64,000 bases of DNA from an uncultured delta proteobacterium (GTDB lineage: Bacteria > Desulfobacterota > Binatia > UBA9968). Under the pieces are notes generated by a model. That model did no database searches. It had not been told where the DNA came from and was given only the letters and a program-made list of their open reading frames with translations. The position numbers were made by a program, and so were the translations under genes. The stretch lies in the NCBI GenBank assembly GCA_963816145.1, contig CAWFJP010000015.1, forward strand, positions 1-64,000, read 5' to 3'. Below are positions 13,868-46,551 of this stretch, piece by piece (within the stretch, counting starts at the first letter, position 1; every line of letters starts with the position of its first letter).

Positions 13868-13927
13868 CCGATCAATTGCGAATAGCACAGCGCAATCATA
13901 CCACAATCGGAAATGCAAAGACCGTCC

Positions 13928-14007
13928 TCACCACGAAGGCACGAAGGATACGAAGGTTTCAGACGATTACAGTTTCGAACTTCGTGCTCTTCGTGCCTTC
14001 GTGGTGA
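13928..14007. repeat. CACGAAG-type palindromic repeat (family A), copy 1
   Basis: CACCACGAAG-(N1-2 CACGAAG)2-spacer-(CTTCGTG)3-GTG; eight copies in the window. Confidence 0.85.
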
Positions 14008-14064
14008 ACGTTCATGATATCAATAAGCCGAAAGATCCCGACCATAAGTACTGTCAGTACACTT

Positions 14065-15222
14065 CTAGAAGTAGCGCCACAGCCACCATTTTTCGAAGCC
14101 GATCTTCGCCCAGTAGATCGCTTTATTCGGTCCCCAGGTGCGCGGGTCGGTGATGCCGAAGGGCGGCCAGCTAGTGGGATAGGTGGTTCGATTTGCCGCG
14201 GCGCGTCCAGCGCCGTAGGCGAGCAGTCATATGGTGTGCAGCCAGAGGTCGACCGGCCTGCCCTTGCCGGTGATCTCGACTGCCAGGTTATGGGCCAAGA
14301 CATCGGCTTCCTGGTGCGCGACGCCGCCGGCTTTGGATGCCGGCATGTCGGCGCAATCGCCGATGGCGTAGACATTGTTCCATTTGGTTTGCAGCGTATC
14401 GTAGTCTACCCGGATGCCGGTTTCGCATTCGGCAAGGCCGCTATCGAGGAGTACCTGCGCGGGACGGTGCGGCGGCACCATGACCAGCAGATCGTAGGGA
14501 ATATTGTAATTATATAGACCCCGGACGATCTTTTTCTCTGGATCGATGGAACGGACGACGAACTCGTAGTGTTGCTCGATGCCACGCCGCTTGCTTTCGG
14601 CATCCATCCACACCACCGGATCATGCGCTTCGCCCGTCGGCTCCGCTTCGCGCGTGAAGTAGTCGATCTGAACGCGGTCGCGAATTCCCTTTTGGCGAAA
14701 ATAGCCGTCGAGCATCCACTGTGCTTCATAGGGCGCCGGCGGACATCGGTAAGGCCCGAGCGGCACGCCGACGACGACCCGGCCGCCACGAAACGACTCC
14801 AAGCTCTCGCGTAAACGCAGCGCTGATTCCATTTCCCAGGGATGCTGTGAAGCCGCGGCAAATCCAGGAACCAAATCGGGACGGGTCTGCATGCCTAACG
14901 AGGTGATCAGGTAGTCGTAGTTGAGATTTTCTTTTTCCAGCGAAACTTCCTGGCGGATCGGATCGATGCCGAGGATTTCCGACTGGATCACCCGAACATT
15001 GCGCTTCTCAAGGATCTTTAAATTACGGCTGATATCGCGCGGCTGGCGTTCGCCGATCATAATAAACAGAAACGCCGGCATGAAAATATGATTGGGCCGC
15101 CGGTCGACGAGAATCACGTCATGATCGGCGCCCAGCCTGCGCCCCAGTTGTGTCGCCGCGACCACGCCGCCGCAACCGCCGCCTAAAATAACAATCCTTT
15201 TTCGCCGCGATAAAAGTTGCAT
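14065..15222 (-). CDS. sqr: Sulfide:quinone oxidoreductase-like flavoprotein (type III-like), candidate selenoprotein with in-frame UGA at 14227-14229 (residue 332 of 385)
   Basis: IVILGGGCGG, YRCPPAPYE, NVYAIGDCA, KAGGVA motifs. After the TGA the frame continues LLAYGAGRAAANRTTYPTSWPPFGITDPRTWGPNKAIYWAKIGFEKWWLWRYF-TAG, the typical SQR C-terminal helix. Confidence 0.8.
14195..14226 (-). promoter_or_regulatory. Putative bacterial SECIS hairpin
   Basis: UGA-CUGCUC-GCC-UA-CGGCGC-UGGAC-GCGCCG-C-GGC: 6-bp GC stem plus outer 3-bp stem, apical-loop G 19 nt after the UGA. Confidence 0.7.
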
Positions 15223-15275
15223 GATGAGTTCTTTTTTATTCCGGGTACATCACGGGTTTACCATGAAGATGTCTA

Positions 15276-15346
15276 CACCACGAAGGACACGAAGATCACG
15301 AAGCTCGGAGTCTTAATTACCCGAAACATTCGCGCTCTTCGTGGTG
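15276..15346. repeat. Family A palindromic repeat, copy 2
   Basis: CACCACGAAGGACACGAAGATCACGAAG...CTTCGTGGTG. Confidence 0.8.
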
Positions 15347-15402: not shown

Positions 15403-15588
15403 CTATTTGTCTTTGGCGCCGAAGCGCTGTTTGGAGCGCTGCGCCAATCCCTGGAGATTTCTCAACCGTTGCTCGCGCCAGAGTTGTTGCTCGCGCCGTC
15501 CGTCGGCGGTCAGCTCCTTGCCGAAGCCGGCGGTCGTGCGCAAAAACCAGAGGATCAACTTGTCGGAAAGATCTTTTAGCCATTCCAT
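15403..15588 (-). CDS. Small hypothetical protein (~61 aa)
   Basis: MEWLKDLSDKLILWFLRTTAGFGKEL...; co-oriented within the cluster. Confidence 0.5.
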   Translation of the reverse strand: MEWLKDLSDKLILWFLRTTAGFGKELTADGRREQQLWREQRLRNLQGLAQRSKQRFGAKDK

Positions 15589-15655: not shown

Positions 15656-16624
15656 TTATCTTAAGAAAGTGTCTTCTTGCCGGAGCTTTTCGCCGGCCGC
15701 GAGCAGTCCTTGCGGCGACGGTCCGGACTCGCCGATGAGCCCGACCTGGCGCAAGAACTGGCCGATCTGCTCGTGATCGCGCGGGCTCACCGGCGCATAG
15801 GGCCGGCAAGGCTGGCCGATATCGACGCCGAAGTGCTTCATCGCCGACTTCATTACCGGCGGCAAACCGTAGGCGCCCCATTTCCCTGGAAACAACGCAT
15901 AGCAGCGCGCCCAGAAGCGCGCGGTCTCCAGATCGCCGGCGCGAAACGCTTTGACGATCTGCGCGCCGATGCGCGTCCCTGGCGGCGGCATGGTCGCACC
16001 CGAGCCGCCAAGCATGAGCGTCACCAACAGAGGCTGCATAGTCGTAAAATAGTGACCGCGGCCGGCCAGCTCGATCTGCTCGATCAAGCGCGAGATCTTG
16101 GTGATGTCGCGGGAGCTCTCCTTAAAGTAGCGAATGTTGTCAATTTCGCTGATTTTAACGAAGGCATCCTGCGGTGGATCGGCGCCGGGACCGGGGTTGT
16201 GATAGCAAGTGACCGGCAATGGACTCGCCGAGGCGACTTGGGTGTAGAACTCCATCAGCTCGGCGATGGTCGGCTGGCCTCCCCACGGGCGCAGCGGCAT
16301 CAAGACTTGAATGAAATCGCCGCCGACTTTAGCAGAGTACTCCGCCAGTTCGATCACCTCGCGCGGCGCCGGGCTCGAGCAGCCGAGAATCACCGGCACC
16401 CGGCCGCCGATCATCTCGGTGGCGACTTTGAGCATTTCCTTGCGCTCGTCCCGCGACAGCATGGTGTATTCCGCCGCCTCCACTGCCGCCACCGTGATCG
16501 CATCGCAGTCGGGGATGAGAAACTCTATTTCCTTTTCGAGCGCCTTGTAATCGATGCGATCGTTCACATCGAAGGGCGTCAAACAGGCGCCAATGATGCC
16601 GCTAATTTGTTTGGTCGTTGCCAT
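15656..16624 (-). CDS. DapA/N-acetylneuraminate lyase family class I aldolase, atypical
   Basis: LTPFD...IDY, CYHNP and Schiff-base FKESS; GxTGE replaced by AVEAAE. Confidence 0.8.
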   Translation of the reverse strand: MATTKQISGIIGACLTPFDVNDRIDYKALEKEIEFLIPDCDAITVAAVEAAEYTMLSRDERKEMLKVATEMIGGRVPVILGCSSPAPREVIELAEYSAKVGGDFIQVLMPLRPWGGQPTIAELMEFYTQVASASPLPVTCYHNPGPGADPPQDAFVKISEIDNIRYFKESSRDITKISRLIEQIELAGRGHYFTTMQPLLVTLMLGGSGATMPPPGTRIGAQIVKAFRAGDLETARFWARCYALFPGKWGAYGLPPVMKSAMKHFGVDIGQPCRPYAPVSPRDHEQIGQFLRQVGLIGESGPSPQGLLAAGEKLRQEDTFLR

Positions 16625-16683
16625 GGCTTGGTTCAGTTCTTCAGCTAATTGTGCGGATCGTTTATGAGGTTCAGATTCTATTG

Positions 16684-16766
16684 TTCACCACGAAGGCACG
16701 AAGGACACGAAGGTTTCGGATAAATAAATCTCCGGACTTCGTGATCTTCGTGTCCTTCGTGGTGAA
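16684..16766. repeat. Family A palindromic repeat, copy 3
   Basis: TTCACCACGAAGGCACGAAGGACACGAAG...CTTCGTGTCCTTCGTGGTGAA. Confidence 0.85.
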
Positions 16767-16796
16767 AACTCTTTTCACAGGAAACCTGCAAGCGCG

Positions 16797-17453
16797 CTAA
16801 TTTAAAACTTCCGCGATGATCCTCGCATGGCCGGCGTCGCTGCCTTTGACTCTAAGAGGCAAAGCCATGATGCGCGTGCGCTTGCCGATGACGTTGCCGA
16901 GGTTGGTGACGTTCTCGGCGATCAATACGTTATTACCCAGCAAAATCCGATGCACGGGAAAGTCGAAACCCTTGGGCCGCAGCGGCGTCGGCAGATCGAC
17001 GGTGATGCAGTCGATGCCGAACATCTTGATACCCTTTTTGACCATCCACTCGGCGGCGTCCACTGAAAGATACGGGTGCAAATTATAATCTGGACTATCG
17101 AACTTCTCGTCCCAGCCGGTATGGAGCATGAGGATATCGCCGCGATTGACTGTGACGCCCGACGCTTCCAAATCCTTAGCCGTCACTTCTTCGCCGCCGT
17201 TTTTCTTGACGCTGATCACCGCGCCGGCGCCGACGAAGGCATCCACCGGCAACTCGTCGATGGATTTACCATTGGGCATGATATGGATCGGCGCATCGAC
17301 ATGGGTACCAGCATGGCACGGCATCGACAGCTCGGTGACATTCAACGGGGCGCCCTTTTCCAAGCTCAAAAATTTCGTCACATGGACATCCGGCAGGATC
17401 GGAATCTTCGGCATGCCGTCGTAAATAACTCTCGACAGATCGATCATTTCCAT
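16797..17453 (-). CDS. Cyclase family protein (kynurenine formamidase-like)
   Basis: HAGTHVDAPIH signature, FGIDCITVD, HRILL...IAEN; ATG after AGGAG. Confidence 0.88.
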   Translation of the reverse strand: MEMIDLSRVIYDGMPKIPILPDVHVTKFLSLEKGAPLNVTELSMPCHAGTHVDAPIHIMPNGKSIDELPVDAFVGAGAVISVKKNGGEEVTAKDLEASGVTVNRGDILMLHTGWDEKFDSPDYNLHPYLSVDAAEWMVKKGIKMFGIDCITVDLPTPLRPKGFDFPVHRILLGNNVLIAENVTNLGNVIGKRTRIMALPLRVKGSDAGHARIIAEVLN

Positions 17454-17469
17454 AACTAAATCTCCTTGT

Positions 17470-18216
17470 TCATTTGCCGCCGCGCCAGCGCGCGTAAAGC
17501 GGATCCTTGTCGACGTAGGTGCGCACGATACCATCGAACGCCAGCCAAAACTGATCCAAAGTCTTCTGCACCGCGGCGCGCACGGCTATCTGTTGAGGTT
17601 CGGTCACGGCGTAACGCTCCACCGCCAGCGGTCCGACCTTCATATGCTCTTCGTCGACGCCCATGTGAAGCGTCCAGTAGCGGATGTCCTCCGACTCGCG
17701 GTTGAAACCGTAATGTTTGGTGAGCCCGTTGACGATACGGGTCATGCGCTCGCTCGCGGTTCCCTCTAGGCAAAATCCCTGGCAGGCATAAAGCTCCAAC
17801 CAAGTGCGTTGGGACATTAGTAGCTCGCGCCAGTCGAGAAAGGCCTGGGTCTCAGGCGTCGGCTCGACGCGATCGAGCTCTTGCTTGTCGGCATAACCGC
17901 AAGCCTTGGCGAAGCGGATGAACAGCGCCTTATGGCTATCGGTGCCGGTGATCTCGCCGGTGCCCTCCTCGACGACGTTTTCGATCCACATTTTTTCCAA
18001 CTCGGGGTCTTCCGGACAACGCGCCAGCATCGCGGCGATCGGTTTCGGAAACGGCTTGGGAAAAAATAAATAAAACTGTCCAACGAAGCCTTTTAACGCC
18101 GCACGGTCCAGTTTGCCTTCCTCGATCATGCCGATAACCGGATGATTTTTGGAGTGCTTGGCCCGCACTAATTGTTGAATTTCTTTAACGAACTCGCCAC
18201 TTGAAACTGCCGCCAT
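17470..18216 (-). CDS. Heme-oxygenase-like diiron (TenA/PqqC/CADD family) protein
   Basis: ENVVEE...SH, LEG, WTLHMGVDEEH ligand pattern; ATG 18216 after AGGAG. Confidence 0.8.
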   Translation of the reverse strand: MAAVSSGEFVKEIQQLVRAKHSKNHPVIGMIEEGKLDRAALKGFVGQFYLFFPKPFPKPIAAMLARCPEDPELEKMWIENVVEEGTGEITGTDSHKALFIRFAKACGYADKQELDRVEPTPETQAFLDWRELLMSQRTWLELYACQGFCLEGTASERMTRIVNGLTKHYGFNRESEDIRYWTLHMGVDEEHMKVGPLAVERYAVTEPQQIAVRAAVQKTLDQFWLAFDGIVRTYVDKDPLYARWRGGK

Positions 18217-18259
18217 GGCTACGATCTCCTTGGCCATTGATTCATCGATATCAAGTAAA

Positions 18260-43722: not shown

Positions 43723-46551
43723 TTATCCTTCATCCTTCTTGAAATAGTACGCTTCCGGCGCCGGTTTGTACGAGCGCGGCAGCCAGAGCGGACGGCGCAG
43801 ATTGTTCGGTCCCGGAGCCGGGCGGGTCTTGAGCATCCACTTCTTGTACACCTCATGCGACTTGTTGGTGTCGACGAAGACGTCCCCGTACTTGTCGTCG
43901 GGACCTGGTTTCGTCACCCGTACCTTTTGATGCCAGCAGTGCTGGCCGCTGATAAAATCGGGCTGCACCGGGAAAGTTAAATTCTGATGGACGCCGCCGT
44001 CCTGCCAAAAGATGCGTGAGGAATCGGGATCGCCGCTTTTGAACGGCTGGATGCCGTGGATCGTCCGCATCATCCATTTGCCCTCGCCCATTTGCTTCAA
44101 GTCGACCAGCGCCGTCGACCACCGCTCTCCGCCTTGATCCTCTGCCAAACGCCAGCGGCCGAGATGATGCGAGCAGGCGATGACGCCGGGCTTGATCCCT
44201 TCGGTGACCCAAACCTTATCGATGAAATAGCCAATCTCGGTGTGGACTTTCAAAAGGTCGCCGGTTTTGACGTCGAAGTTCTGCGCGTCCGTGGAATTTA
44301 ACCAGAGCGGGTTGCGATTGGAAATCTCATAGAGCCACTTGGCATTACCCGAACGCGTATGGATCAACGTCGGCAAACGGAAAGTCGGCAGGAGCAACAT
44401 CTCGCCGGCATTAATGTCGATATTGTCGGGATGGACATGGCTCTTAATGTAACCGGGGATGGCATGCTCGGGCCACTTCCAATCCTTGATCGTCTTAGAA
44501 AAGAATTCCAACTTGCGCGACGGCGTCGGAAAGCCGACCACAGCCTTGCCGTCGATTTCGACGCCCAGCGCCGCGCCATTTTTGGCGACGATTTTGGTCG
44601 TTGCATCGACCGTCGAGTCGGCGAGATCGGCGCTCTTTACCGTAGCTTCGTGGACTTTGTAAACGTTGTCTTCGATCAAAAACGCGCCGTACTTGCGCAT
44701 GTATTCGAGCGGGGTTAATCCTTGCTTGCCTGCCGCTTCCGGGAGTCCCGGCACGCTATTCTCGAACATCCAGCGATAGTAATCGTCCACCGTCATCTTT
44801 TTGCCGGGCTCGTAGGGCGATTCGAAATACTTGCGAATGCCCATGGAACCGTCGGGATCGACGCGCCAGGACAGCTCGATCCAAAATTCGTCTTCTTCCC
44901 ACACCTGGCCGATGCCGGCGGCTTCATGGGCTTCGTAGGTGGTGTTGAATTTCTTGCCCTGCTTTTCCAAAGCGACGCGCAGAACCGGCTGGCGGAAGCC
45001 GATCCAGCGCGCCGCCTGGGTCTCCTGGCTCATCACATCATGGCGCTCGGAACCATGACCCATCGGCAGAACGTAATCGGCAAACCACGCGGTCTCGCTC
45101 CAAGTCGGGGTTAGACAAGCATGACGTTCGATTTTGCTCTCGTCGGACAGCATCTCGATCCAGCTCATGCCGTCCGGGTTGGTCCACACCGGGTTGTAGA
45201 CGCGGGTAAAGTACATCGCCAATTTGCCGCGCCCTTCTTTGATGAAGTGCGGCAAGAGAAAACTCATCTCGAAAAACGCCAGCGGAAACTCTTTCGGAAT
45301 CAGCAGCTCATTCCACACCTTCGATGGCGGCGGCATCAACGGCGGCGCTGGAATGAACTTATTCGCCGCATTGGGCGCGGTGCCGCCAACGGTGCCGACG
45401 GCGCCGACCAGGACGCTGAGAAATTGCAGAGCCCGGGCGACTTGCCAGCCGCCGAGGTTGCCGGCCGCGGTGTTGCGCCAAACATGAGCGGCAAACGCCG
45501 AACCCGCTTTAGCGACCTCGTGAGCCACTGCGACGATCACACCCGGCTCGATGCCGGCCTCTTTGGCGGCGAATTCAGGGGTGTACTGGGCATAGACTTC
45601 TTTGAGCACGGCAACGAAGCTGGCAAAACTTACCTGCTTGTCCGGATGTTCTTCGCGCAAATATTCTTCCCAATTGACCCAGTGACGCACGAACTCGCGG
45701 TCGAACAGATCCTCTTGCAGGAGCACATTGCACATCGCCAGGAGCACGGCCGACTCGCTGCCGGGCCAGGTCGACATCCAATAGTCCGCCTTCGACGCGG
45801 TGTTGGAGAGCCGCGTGTCGATGACGCAAATCTTGGTGCCGGCTTCTTTGGCTTCGATAATCCGCTGGGCGTGAGGATTGAAATAGTGACCGGTCTCCAG
45901 GTGCGAGCTCAAGAGCAAAATAAAGCGCGCATTGGCATGATCGGGCGACGGCCGGTCGATGCCGGACCAGAAAGCGTAACCCGCGCGGGCGCCGGCCGAG
46001 CAAACATTAGTGTGGCTGTTATGACCGTCGATGCCCCAGGAATGCAGAATGCGTTGATGATAGAGCAGCTCGTGGCCAGGACGGCCGACATGGTACATGA
46101 TTTCGTTGCGCCGCTCTTCGTGGAGCGCCTTGCGAACCCGTCCGGCGATGTCGTCCAGCACTTCATCCCAACTGACCCGCTCCCATTTACCTTCGCCGCG
46201 TTTGCCGACCCGCTTTAGCGGATAGCGGATGCGTTCCGGATCGGTCACTTGATTGAGCGTCGCAGGCCCTTTGGCGCAATTGCGGCCGCGGCTGCCGGGA
46301 TGTTCGGGATTGCCTTCGAAGCGGCGGATCTTGTTGGTGTCCATCTCGACGACCGCGACCAGCCCGCAAGCCGCTTCGCAGTTGAAACAAATCGTCGGAA
46401 TGATCCGGCAATGCTTCTCGACCTTGCGCGGCCATTGCGCCGTGTCGTACTCAACCCAATCGTCCCATTTTTCAATTGGCGGGTAATTGACCAAGCCGTT
46501 GGGCTCCAACTTTAAGGCATCAGGATTAAGCGGCACGCGCGGTTCATTCAT
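43723..46551 (-). CDS. Molybdopterin (bis-MGD) oxidoreductase catalytic subunit, Psr/Phs-like
   Basis: CFNCEAAC...CAKG Fe-S motif, HTNVCS ligand region, IHTRS; no Tat signal. Confidence 0.88.
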   Translation of the reverse strand: MNEPRVPLNPDALKLEPNGLVNYPPIEKWDDWVEYDTAQWPRKVEKHCRIIPTICFNCEAACGLVAVVEMDTNKIRRFEGNPEHPGSRGRNCAKGPATLNQVTDPERIRYPLKRVGKRGEGKWERVSWDEVLDDIAGRVRKALHEERRNEIMYHVGRPGHELLYHQRILHSWGIDGHNSHTNVCSAGARAGYAFWSGIDRPSPDHANARFILLLSSHLETGHYFNPHAQRIIEAKEAGTKICVIDTRLSNTASKADYWMSTWPGSESAVLLAMCNVLLQEDLFDREFVRHWVNWEEYLREEHPDKQVSFASFVAVLKEVYAQYTPEFAAKEAGIEPGVIVAVAHEVAKAGSAFAAHVWRNTAAGNLGGWQVARALQFLSVLVGAVGTVGGTAPNAANKFIPAPPLMPPPSKVWNELLIPKEFPLAFFEMSFLLPHFIKEGRGKLAMYFTRVYNPVWTNPDGMSWIEMLSDESKIERHACLTPTWSETAWFADYVLPMGHGSERHDVMSQETQAARWIGFRQPVLRVALEKQGKKFNTTYEAHEAAGIGQVWEEDEFWIELSWRVDPDGSMGIRKYFESPYEPGKKMTVDDYYRWMFENSVPGLPEAAGKQGLTPLEYMRKYGAFLIEDNVYKVHEATVKSADLADSTVDATTKIVAKNGAALGVEIDGKAVVGFPTPSRKLEFFSKTIKDWKWPEHAIPGYIKSHVHPDNIDINAGEMLLLPTFRLPTLIHTRSGNAKWLYEISNRNPLWLNSTDAQNFDVKTGDLLKVHTEIGYFIDKVWVTEGIKPGVIACSHHLGRWRLAEDQGGERWSTALVDLKQMGEGKWMMRTIHGIQPFKSGDPDSSRIFWQDGGVHQNLTFPVQPDFISGQHCWHQKVRVTKPGPDDKYGDVFVDTNKSHEVYKKWMLKTRPAPGPNNLRRPLWLPRSYKPAPEAYYFKKDEG

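What the first reader, a model, noticed from the sequence alone, without database searches (positions are those of the whole stretch)
14065..15222. Candidate selenocysteine-containing sulfide:quinone oxidoreductase hidden behind an in-frame UGA
Seen: the ORF track ends the protein at ...LWLHTI-TGA (14227-14229), but the frame stays open for 53 more codons ending YWAKIGFEKWWLWRYF-TAG. Directly 3' of the UGA is a GC-rich hairpin (CGGCGC-UGGAC-GCGCCG, outer GCC/GGC) with a loop G 19 nt from the UGA. Established: SQRs use a Cys pair, one in CPxxxYE (here YRCPPAPYE) and one near the C-terminus in a C-x-x-x-x-G-x-G context upstream of a KxxFE amphipathic membrane helix; bacterial SECIS elements lie just 3' of the UGA with a G early in the apical loop. 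Here U-L-L-A-Y-G-A-G occupies the second Cys position. Inference: a 385-aa SQR with a Cys/Sec redox pair (selenylsulfide chemistry) for sulfide or selenide oxidation, which standard annotation would truncate. I am not aware of a characterised Sec-SQR but cannot check the literature here.
Basis: partly seen in the sequence, partly recalled or inferred. Interest (0 to 1): 0.92.

Follow-up and report, generated by a model that had tools for sequence, protein, structure and literature searches.

The report
Selenocysteine sulfide:quinone reductase in Binatia
This gene encodes a full-length sulfide:quinone-reductase-type enzyme whose second catalytic cysteine is replaced by selenocysteine (a read-through TGA), a form already predicted in other bacteria but here found in a separate, soil-abundant lineage that databases routinely cut short.

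Summary

- **The gene:** window 15222..14065 (minus strand) has an in-frame TGA at codon 332 and 53 further codons.
- **Conservation:** the TGA is present in 29/29 orthologues read codon by codon, in 104/104 genome matches covering residue 332 across the order, and in 80/80 metagenome loci. The tail is under purifying selection (dN/dS 0.06-0.23).
- **Catalytic position:** the TGA aligns with the second catalytic Cys of SQRs (human Cys379). Cys160 is conserved.
- **SECIS candidate:** a hairpin starts 11 nt after the UGA. Its synonymous sites are frozen, and it has the same geometry as the hairpins in three GrdB selenoprotein genes of this genome.
- **Sec machinery:** selA, selB, selD and tRNA-Sec are all present.

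The idea is not new. Sec forms of this enzyme were predicted in 2025 and NCBI curates them as NF049943 (motif HxxU). This clade, however, scores far below that model and is phylogenetically separate (AU p 7e-66), so Sec arose or was lost at this site at least twice. Public databases truncate it almost everywhere at 331 aa.

No Sec-SQR biochemistry turned up in my searches. A conserved, unannotated ~61-aa gene sits immediately upstream.

The parts
14065..15222 (-). Full Sec-SQR coding sequence: 385 codons plus the TAG stop. Standard calling stops at codon 331.
   Evidence: Pfam Pyr_redox_2 + FCSD_central. SQR fold, TM 0.83-0.85 to solved SQRs.
14227..14229 (-). UGA codon 332, read as selenocysteine. 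It sits at the position of the second catalytic Cys.
   Evidence: Aligns with Cys in human SQOR ...YTSCPLVTG and with Cys in all Cys homologues. TGA in 29/29, 104/104, 5/5 and 80/80.
14199..14215 (-). Candidate SECIS: 6-bp stem C-GGCGC/GCGCC-G with a 5-nt loop UGGAC (14205-14209). The stem starts 11 nt after the UGA.
   Evidence: Stem third-codon positions are lower in entropy than all 64 other fourfold columns. 162/162 cells paired, variants all G.U. 77/78 metagenome loci fully paired. Same geometry as three GrdB-family genes of this genome. The Cys form P0031 has EPGK in place of GAGR.
14743..14745 (-). Cys160 codon (TGT) in YRCPPAPYE, the first redox-active cysteine.
   Evidence: Invariant column in the 41-sequence alignment. 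Aligns with human ...PVKCAGAPQ.
15166..15186 (-). N-terminal dinucleotide (FAD) binding motif L-G-G-G-C-G-G, residues 13-19.
   Evidence: Pfam Pyr_redox_2 and NAD_binding_8 matches at residues 9-43. G14, G16, G18 and G19 are invariant.
14071..14124 (-). C-terminal Trp-rich helix, residues 367-384 (...IYWAKIGFEKWWLWRYF). Presumed monotopic membrane anchor.
   Evidence: Predicted helix 367-384. Conserved in all orthologues. The membrane role is inferred from SQRs.
15403..15588 (-). Unannotated small gene (61 aa, MEWLKDLSDKLILWFL...) immediately upstream, on the same strand.
   Evidence: tblastn hit in 114/114 loci at 46-93% identity. ORF of 59-67 aa in 113/114. Median 23 nt before the SQR start. 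dN/dS 0.07-0.10. Two-helix model, pLDDT 84. No Pfam family.
13927..14008 (-). REP-like long palindrome about 60 nt after the stop codon, between the convergent genes. Possible terminator.
   Evidence: 20-bp perfect stem, -52.9 kcal/mol, z -4.6. The motif occurs 7 times in the window against 0.7 expected.
15656..16624 (-). Upstream DHDPS-family gene, syntenic with the SQR throughout the clade.
   Evidence: Pfam DHDPS 1.6e-31. Present upstream in 29/29 genome loci and in 71/71 metagenome or named loci with more than 600 nt of flank.

Best explanation
The gene encodes a 385-residue monotopic flavoprotein of the sulfide:quinone oxidoreductase (SQR) fold. UGA codon 332 is decoded as selenocysteine. 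SelB bound to Sec-tRNA(Sec) is recruited by a short hairpin that begins 11 nt after the UGA and is itself part of the coding sequence (G-A-G-R-A). Sec332 takes the place of the second redox-active cysteine, the acceptor-facing Cys379 of human SQOR, and pairs with Cys160. The likely chemistry is the SQR cycle with a mixed S/Se bridge: sulfide attacks the Cys160-S(-S)-Se-Sec332 bridge, electrons pass through FAD to a membrane quinone, and the sulfane sulfur leaves from the Sec side. Shown here: the conserved TGA, a tail translated under selection, the Cys/Sec correspondence, the conserved hairpin, the Sec machinery and the SQR fold. Inferred: actual Se incorporation, the substrate, the S/Se bridge and membrane binding. 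My odds are about 0.95 that it is a selenoprotein and about 0.65 that its physiological reaction is sulfide:quinone oxidoreduction.
For: TGA at codon 332 in an invariant HTI-U-LL context in 29/29 orthologues from 5 genera and 3 families. Across the order, 106/123 genomes have the gene, and all 104 matches covering residue 332 contain an in-frame TGA (hand count of 113 rows). All 5 named MAG loci and 80/80 metagenome loci have it. Tail dN/dS is 0.062-0.231 with dS 0.53-2.0. 7 of 28 orthologues use TGA as the real stop at codon 386, so TGA is not generally a sense codon. The UGA aligns with catalytic Cys in human SQOR and in Cys homologues. Hairpin: frozen synonymous sites, 100% pairing with only G.U variants, and the GAGR residues replaced by EPGK in the one Cys form. 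The identical geometry (spacer 11, stem 6, loop N-G-G-N-N) is found in three GrdB-family selenoprotein genes of the same genome, a geometry found at 66 of 235,523 TGAs. selA at 616 bits, selB at 417, selD at 380 with its own TGA, and tRNA-Sec at 74 bits. selA found in 110/123 genomes of the order, and in 97 of the 106 that carry the gene. AF2 model with pLDDT 87.7; best structural matches are solved SQRs. Best family hit is NF049943, 'type III SQR, selenoprotein subtype', which has the same HxxU motif (PMC13188914).
Against: No protein-level or 75Se evidence. No compensatory (both-sided) covariation in the stem, and the shuffle control equals the observed value. Single-sequence folding is not better than shuffles (z -0.45 to -1.13). 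No Rfam family matches the hairpin. The score against NF049943 is 250.5 bits against a cut-off of 525. 9 of the 106 genomes with the gene showed no selA; they are MAGs, 60-96% complete. A few copies carry extra stops or frameshifts: G019/L042, G020, G383, G387, G393 and L073. The neighbourhood holds no recognisable sulfur-metabolism gene. Metatranscriptome contigs cover only parts upstream of the TGA.
Confidence: 0.87

Rival explanations
1. It is a selenoprotein of the SQR fold, but its physiological substrate is not sulfide. It might oxidise hydrogen selenide, or act on persulfides, polysulfides or a thiol cofactor, or serve a pathway shared with the syntenic DHDPS-family, cyclase and small-ORF genes.
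For: No sulfur-oxidation genes nearby; the conserved neighbours are a DHDPS-family gene, a cyclase and a novel 61-aa gene. It is only 20-24% identical to characterised SQRs. It is below the cut-off of the only SQR-specific NCBIfam model. SQRs are promiscuous and also turn over selenide (PMC12589024 passages; PDB 3sz0 title). A weaker hit is to TIGR03169, an oxidoreductase family fused to SelD.
Against: Both catalytic positions, the FAD motif, the FCSD_central domain and the C-terminal helix are those of SQRs. The top 15 structural matches are SQRs. It is the only SQR-like gene found in this genome with the NF049943 model.
Confidence: 0.25
2. The UGA is read through, but by something other than Sec-tRNA: near-cognate Trp or Cys insertion, or a lineage-specific reassignment of TGA.
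For: Incorporation of Se was not measured. 9 genomes with the gene showed no selA.
Against: TGA is the true stop of this very gene in 7/28 orthologues. A complete Sec system is present. The hairpin has the geometry of the GrdB SECIS elements. The site aligns with a catalytic Cys, the classic Cys/Sec pair. At least 11 candidate selenoprotein genes show the same pattern.
Confidence: 0.03
3. Translation stops at the TGA. The 331-aa product is the protein, or the gene is decaying, and the downstream frame is open by chance or history.
For: This is how nearly all database entries are called: 118 of the 120 best hits are 331 aa. A few copies are disrupted.
Against: Tail dN/dS is 0.06-0.23 at dS up to 2. 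The tail is exactly 53 codons in 28/28 and 77/78 loci. A truncated product would lack the second catalytic residue and the C-terminal helix.
Confidence: 0.02
4. The TGA is a sequencing or assembly error for TGC/TGT.
For: None found.
Against: An independent wetland run has one contig spanning 14000-15300 with 7 differences, none at 14227-14229. TGA is present in over a hundred independent assemblies.
Confidence: 0.005

Closest known systems
[quoted passage not shown]
   Same: Same fold family. Sec is in the same alignment column (HTI-U here, HAT-U there), with the same HxxU motif and the same conserved first Cys in CPxAPxE. Both are computational predictions without biochemistry.
   Different: About 32-34% identity. 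250 bits against a cut-off of 525, no better than a Cys homologue at 241 bits. Separated by 100/100 branches; a single Sec clade is rejected, p-AU 7e-66. 53 rather than about 94 residues follow the Sec. A different hairpin-encoding peptide. A different lineage: an order labelled Binatia, from soil and wetland. The upstream small gene was not found there.
Human SQOR (type II; PDB 6oi5, 8dhk) and bacterial type I SQRs (3hyv, 3sz0)
   Same: Overall fold, TM 0.83-0.85. FAD site. The two catalytic positions: Cys201/Cys379 in human correspond to Cys160/Sec332. A C-terminal membrane helix.
   Different: 20-24% identity. Sulfur, not selenium, at the second position. Human SQOR has a Cys-S-S-S-Cys trisulfide (PMC12589024); whether a Se analogue forms here is unknown.
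Characterised type III SQRs (Caldivirga maquilingensis; Methylacidiphilum fumariolicum SolV; cable-bacteria class III)
   Same: Two canonical catalytic cysteines at comparable positions (Cys159/Cys339 in cable bacteria, PMC13047784 passage). No signal peptide.
   Different: I could not align against these sequences because none was available to the tools. Type III membership of this clade therefore rests only on the name of its best NCBIfam hit.
Mammalian thioredoxin reductase (recalled, not tested here)
   Same: A pyridine-nucleotide-disulfide-oxidoreductase-superfamily flavoprotein that uses a Cys/Sec redox pair.
   Different: There the Sec lies in a C-terminal GCUG extension and the SECIS is in the eukaryotic 3' UTR. 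Here Sec replaces a core active-site Cys and the SECIS is within the coding sequence.

Membership tests
Bacterial selenoprotein gene (SelB/SECIS-decoded UGA) | In-frame UGA conserved among orthologues, with the downstream frame under purifying selection | tested here: met
   29/29, 104/104, 5/5 and 80/80. Tail dN/dS 0.06-0.23.
Bacterial selenoprotein gene (SelB/SECIS-decoded UGA) | UGA aligns with Cys in homologues (Cys/Sec pair) | tested here: met
   Human SQOR; P0031 at 71% identity; 10 Cys forms in alignment A3.
Bacterial selenoprotein gene (SelB/SECIS-decoded UGA) | Stem-loop just 3' of the UGA with G in the apical loop (the bSECIS model criteria are recalled, not read) | tested here: met
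   Present and conserved. Same geometry as three GrdB genes in this genome. Caveats: no compensatory covariation, energy not distinctive, no Rfam hit.
Bacterial selenoprotein gene (SelB/SECIS-decoded UGA) | selA, selB, selD and tRNA-Sec in the genome | tested here: met
   All four above their cut-offs, clustered on contig C30.
Bacterial selenoprotein gene (SelB/SECIS-decoded UGA) | Selenium in the protein | not testable with these tools
   Needs 75Se labelling or mass spectrometry.
Sulfide:quinone oxidoreductase (SQR) family | Two-Rossmann FAD fold of SQR/FCSD with the FCSD central domain | tested here: met
   Pfam PF07992 and PF21706. AF2 model and Foldseek, top hits SQRs at TM 0.83-0.85.
Sulfide:quinone oxidoreductase (SQR) family | Two redox-active residues at the conserved positions | tested here: met
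   Cys160 is invariant. Position 332 is Sec or Cys in all 41 aligned sequences; it corresponds to human Cys201/Cys379.
Sulfide:quinone oxidoreductase (SQR) family | C-terminal amphipathic helix for monotopic membrane binding | tested here: inconclusive
   A conserved Trp-rich helix is predicted at 367-384. Membrane binding itself was not tested.
Sulfide:quinone oxidoreductase (SQR) family | Sulfide-dependent quinone reduction | not testable with these tools
   Needs an enzyme assay.
NCBIfam NF049943 (SQR_III_seleno) | HMM score at or above the curated cut-off of 525 bits | tested here: not met
   250.5 bits and 244.6 bits on DNA. True members score 655-673.
NCBIfam NF049943 (SQR_III_seleno) | Sec in an HxxU motif at the second catalytic position | tested here: met
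   HTIU against HATU in the same column. Motif as listed in PMC13188914.
NCBIfam NF049943 (SQR_III_seleno) | Forms one clade with the family's members | tested here: not met
   Tree with 100/100 separating branches. AU test rejects, dlnL 401.5, p 7e-66.
Type III SQR (Marcia et al. 2010 classification) | Class-specific sequence fingerprints, or placement with reference type III sequences | not tested

The most novel reading that the evidence does not exclude
Selenocysteine was installed, or retained against Cys, at the same catalytic position of SQR independently in two distant lineages. In this one it is fixed across a whole order of abundant soil and wetland bacteria, encoded together with a clade-specific 61-aa two-helix protein that may be a subunit or anchor. 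The enzyme would run a mixed Cys-S-(S)-Se-Sec cofactor that gives high-affinity or oxidation-resistant sulfide (or selenide) oxidation in oxic soils. It would be a natural, convergent experiment on why enzymes choose Se over S, hidden because every pipeline truncates the gene.
Probability: 0.25. Interest if true: 0.75.

Novelty: new member of a known kind. Interest (0 to 1): 0.55.

Why it matters
**Annotation.** Hundreds of database clusters of this enzyme are cut at residue 331, losing a catalytic residue and the membrane helix. 118 of the 120 best hits are 331 aa, and P0031 is the only full-length protein among the 120 listed. NCBI's selenoprotein model does not reach this clade, so a new model or a lowered cut-off would fix a systematic error in soil and wetland metagenomes.

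**Biology.** Two separate Cys/Sec switches at one catalytic site of SQR give matched natural pairs for asking what selenium buys in persulfide chemistry. No Sec-SQR seems to have been assayed.

**Ecology.** The gene is near-universal in an uncultured order (106/123 genomes). These genomes also carry selA (110/123), although none of the formate dehydrogenase homologues of this genome has a TGA. So these bacteria need selenium for sulfide handling and for a set of redox proteins.

Tried and rejected
- **Tail-only database search** (residues 322-385): no hit, not even P0031, which shares the tail. I treat this as a limit of the word index, not as absence.
- **Rfam:** nothing on the hairpin or on the leader.
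- **Single-sequence folding** of the hairpin and of the selD site: not better than shuffles, so thermodynamics is not used as support. By eye, selD may have a 4-bp GGUC/GACC stem with a CGGGU loop, but RNAfold prefers another fold, so I make no claim.
- **Covariation**: perfect pairing but no double changes, and the shuffle control is equal. This is not proof of structure.
- **Position of the Cys form P0031:** the AU test cannot say whether it lies outside or inside the Sec clade (p 0.44). Its own contig was not retrieved (best 76%), so loss of the hairpin is inferred from its protein sequence only.
- **RNA runs:** metatranscriptome contigs cover 14274-14432, 14893-15043, 15084-15234 and 15116-15294, but not the TGA or the tail. 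The tool warns that DNA can be present in such libraries, so no claim of expression is made.
- **First de novo selenoprotein scan**: its 0.35 threshold missed the SQR's own tail (0.32). The relaxed scan with a hairpin filter is not exhaustive, since it misses selD, and 13 of its 22 other candidates had no family hit, close to the roughly 15 chance hits expected.
- **Literature search:** too loose; none of the 15 papers listed mentions Binatia. Searches returned 0 papers. PMC5421297 was an irrelevant reference-list hit.
- **Type assignment by fingerprints:** not possible, because Marcia et al. 2010 was seen only as a citation.
- **Supplements:** closed. Table S2 of PMC12013277 may list Sec positions or further organisms that bear on how far the known family was already traced.
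Full report
**Observation.** On the minus strand, an ATG at 15222 opens a frame that reaches TGA at 14229-14227 after 331 codons (…LWLHTI). The frame then stays open for 53 more codons to TAG at 14067-14065 (…YWAKIGFEKWWLWRYF). Eleven nucleotides after the UGA begins a 6-bp stem, C-GGCGC/GCGCC-G, with loop UGGAC (14215-14199).

**What the protein is.** The read-through product (385 aa) matches Pfam Pyr_redox_2 and FCSD_central. [quoted passage not shown] Against solved structures by sequence, the best hits are:
- human SQOR (9e-31);
- Acidianus SQR (1.7e-26);
- flavocytochrome c sulfide dehydrogenases;
- Aquifex and Acidithiobacillus SQRs.

In the human alignment, residue 332 falls on the Cys of …YTSCPLVTG and Cys160 on …PVKCAGAP. 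By offset these are Cys379 and Cys201, the pair that carries the catalytic trisulfide, Cys379 being the one that faces the acceptor groove (PMC12589024, passages read). An AlphaFold2 model built on 41 sequences is confident (pLDDT 87.7, pTM 0.87). It puts residue 332 in a β-hairpin and ends in a helix at 367-384. Foldseek ranks solved SQRs first (TM 0.83-0.85), then FCSD, then NDH-2.

**Is the UGA read?**
- In 41 relatives' genomes, 35 have the gene. I read 29 orthologues codon by codon (67-92% identical, 5 genera, 3 families). All 29 have TGA at codon 332 in HTI-U-LL, and the 28 complete ones all end at codon 386, with TAG 11 times, TAA 10 times and TGA 7 times. So TGA is still a stop in these organisms, and its meaning depends on context.
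- Downstream of the TGA, dN/dS is 0.062-0.231 with dS 0.53-2.0, similar to the upstream part.
- Across the whole order, 106 of 123 genomes have a match (53 of 58 high-quality genomes, 26 of 27 genera). Of the 113 match rows, 104 cover residue 332 and all 104 contain an in-frame TGA. The other 9 are fragments that end before it. No Cys form was found there (my hand count; the TGA position was verified codon by codon only in the 29).
- Five named MAG loci and 80 of 80 metagenome loci show the same pattern.
- An independent wetland run holds a contig that spans the whole gene with 7 differences, none at the TGA.

Exceptions: a few copies are frameshifted or carry an additional stop (G019/L042, G020, G383, G387, G393, L073). 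These may be MAG errors or occasional pseudogenes.

**The hairpin.**
- *Energy.* By energy alone it is unremarkable in this GC-rich coding context (z -0.83), and Rfam has no match.
- *Frozen synonymous sites.* The three fourfold-degenerate third positions that lie in the stem (codons 337, 340, 341) have entropies of 0.22, 0.00 and 0.37 bits. That is lower than every one of the 64 other invariant fourfold columns of the gene, whose mean is 1.41. The neighbouring loop and flank third positions vary freely, except codon 339 at 0.44.
- *Pairing.* All 162 of 162 cells pair. The only changes are to G·U, and there are no double compensatory changes, so covariation proper gives no support. In the metagenome set, 77 of 78 examined stems pair fully.
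- *The Cys form.* The single Cys-containing relative (P0031, 71% identical) has E-P-G-K where all Sec forms have the hairpin-encoding G-A-G-R.
- *Internal control.* A de novo scan of this genome looked for TGA codons with coding signal on both sides and a following hairpin. It returned 23 sites. Besides the SQR, 9 of the other 22 hit protein families across the TGA:
  - three GrdB-family 'selenoprotein B' paralogues (TIGR01918, 438-469 bits);
  - an AhpD-like peroxidase-related protein;
  - a SelL-related redox protein;
  - a CMD-family protein;
  - a YciW-related protein;
  - a GST-like protein;
  - a rhodanese/ion-channel protein.

  The three GrdB genes have exactly the SQR's geometry: an 11-nt spacer, a 6-bp stem and a 5-nt loop with GG at loop positions 2-3. 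Genome-wide, that geometry follows only 66 of 235,523 TGA trinucleotides.

I recall that the minimal E. coli fdhF SECIS also sits 11 nt from its UGA, and that bacterial SECIS models ask for a G early in the apical loop. I did not check these in a paper.

**Sec machinery.** selA (616 bits), selB (417 bits) and selD (380 bits, itself with …KAAG-U-AAK…) lie side by side on contig C30, with tRNA-Sec (74 bits) 10 kb away. In the order, selA is found above its cut-off in 110 of 123 genomes and in 27 of 27 genera. 97 of the 106 genomes that carry the gene show selA; the 9 that do not are MAGs of 60-96% completeness (my cross-tabulation).

**Known or new?** The concept is in print. [quoted passage not shown] Ours reads H-T-I-U.

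I located true NF049943 members in another family of the same phylum. They score 655-673 bits; four have a TGA and one is a Cys paralogue. Their TGA is in the same alignment column as ours. Our clade, however, scores no better against that model than an ordinary Cys homologue (245-250 against 241 bits). It is 32-34% identical to those members and has 53 rather than about 94 residues after the Sec.

In a maximum-likelihood tree of 41 sequences, the two Sec groups sit in different deep clades (100/100), each with closer Cys relatives. A single Sec clade is rejected (ΔlnL 401.5, p-AU 7e-66). So at least two Cys/Sec switches occurred at this site. The direction is not determined, and the tree is unrooted.

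The lone Cys form P0031 is the only full-length protein among its 120 best relatives. The nearest ones are 329-330-aa truncations, and the five I fetched end in …HTI. This suggests a reversion, but its placement is unresolved (p 0.44).

**Literature on Sec-SQR.** Searches for selenocysteine or selenoprotein together with sulfide quinone (reductase) found no biochemical study of a Sec-SQR. 'Binatia' with 'selenocysteine' and 'Binatota' with 'sulfide quinone' returned no paper. These searches cover only the held open-access library.

**Annotation consequence.** Of the 120 best database relatives of the read-through protein, 118 are 331 aa, one is 327 aa and one (P0031) is 385 aa. They are named 'sulfide:quinone oxidoreductase' or 'FAD/NAD(P)-binding oxidoreductase', with labels such as Candidatus Binatia bacterium. 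Other labels seen are Acidoferrales/Acidiferrales, Zixibacteria and Deltaproteobacteria; I did not verify those bin labels. The stretch occurs nearly identically in soil and wetland runs: 14 DNA runs hold at least 0.81 of its sampled words.

**Mechanism proposed.**
- *Shown:* a conserved, context-dependent UGA at a catalytic Cys position; a translated tail; a conserved SECIS-like hairpin of the organism's own type; a complete Sec system; an SQR fold with the FAD motif, Cys160 and a C-terminal helix.
- *Inferred:* SelB-mediated Sec insertion. A Cys160/Sec332 redox centre, possibly bridged by sulfane sulfur as in human SQOR, in which sulfide reduces FAD and then quinone, with Sec as the better nucleophile and leaving group on the acceptor side. 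Monotopic membrane binding on the cytoplasmic face, since the Rossmann fold starts at residue 8 and no signal peptide is evident.
- *Uncertain:* the substrate. The neighbourhood lacks sulfur genes, and SQRs also oxidise selenide.

**Surroundings.** The gene is preceded, on the same strand, by a cyclase-family gene, a DHDPS-family gene (present in 29/29 and 71/71 loci) and a previously uncalled small gene at 15403-15588. That small gene:
- is 61 aa;
- gives a hit in 114/114 loci at 46-93% identity, with an ORF of 59-67 aa in 113 of them;
- ends a median of 23 nt before the SQR start;
- has dN/dS 0.07-0.10;
- is predicted as a two-helix hairpin (pLDDT 84, pTM 0.42);
- has no Pfam family;
- was not found upstream of the Cys relatives or the NF049943 loci.

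In the window, a REP-like element is inserted between it and the SQR, and another lies after the stop codon.

**Verdict.** This is a real selenoprotein gene (about 0.95) and very probably an SQR-type enzyme (about 0.65 for sulfide:quinone activity). It is not a new kind of thing, but it is a separate, order-wide, environmentally common and systematically mis-annotated Sec lineage, with an independent Cys/Sec history. Interest 0.55. Claims that include unpublished genomes (G005, G376, G379, G393) are the counts. They hold without them (28/28; 99/99).

Noticed in passing
window 15403-15588 (-): An unannotated conserved small gene (61 aa, MEWLKDLSDKLILWFL...) lies directly upstream of the Sec-SQR. 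It gives a hit in 114/114 loci of the clade, has dN/dS about 0.07-0.10, is predicted as a two-helix hairpin and has no Pfam family. It was not found next to the Cys relatives or the NF049943 genes. It may be a subunit, anchor or assembly factor.
   Followed up: partly
window 15656-18237 (-): A conserved gene string lies upstream of the SQR: an iron-containing redox enzyme (TenA/PqqC-like, 255 aa), a cyclase (245 aa) and a DHDPS-family protein (322 aa). The DHDPS gene is syntenic in 29/29 and 71/71 loci, and the cyclase where the flank allows. Any functional link to the SQR is unknown.
   Followed up: partly
window 13927-14008, 15240-15300, 16689-16703 and elsewhere: REP-like palindromic elements are built from CACGAAGG-type units (7 motif matches in the window against 0.7 expected). 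The one after the SQR stop folds into a 20-bp perfect stem (z -4.6). One is inserted between the small ORF and the SQR start in this genome only, widening that gap to 180 nt against a median of 23.
   Followed up: partly
G000 contigs C8:46580-47998, C27:56059-57384, C31:463136-464425 (loci L085-L087): There are three paralogous GrdB-family 'selenoprotein B' genes with in-frame TGA (ILTS[TA]-U-G) in a 7.8-Mb soil-type genome. All score below the cut-offs of the glycine, sarcosine and betaine reductase equivalog models, so their substrates are unknown.
   Followed up: partly
G000 loci L084, L088, L089, L090, L096, L101: Further candidate selenoprotein genes: a rhodanese domain fused to an ion-channel domain (…CAGPT-U-P…), a YciW-related protein (C-E-Y-U), an AhpD-like peroxidase-related protein (C-S-Y-U), a GST-like protein (…YT-U-PYAHR…), a CMD-family protein (C-D-P-U) and a SelL-related protein (U-L-P-C). 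With SelD and the SQR that makes at least 11 candidates. The scan is not exhaustive.
   Followed up: partly
G000, 10 loci including window 45382-46395 (-): All 10 formate-dehydrogenase-alpha-like matches in this genome lack an in-frame TGA. The commonest bacterial selenoprotein is therefore not a selenoprotein here, even though the Sec system is kept.
   Followed up: no
G000:C30:562492-576851: selA, selB and a Sec-containing selD form one cluster, with tRNA-Sec about 10 kb downstream.
   Followed up: no
L073; genomes G019, G020, G383, G387, G393: A minority of copies of the Sec-SQR gene carry an extra stop (for example at a conserved Gln codon in L073) or a frameshift. These may be assembly errors in MAGs or occasional pseudogenisation. 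G331, a 100%-complete genome of the same family, showed neither the gene nor selA.
   Followed up: no
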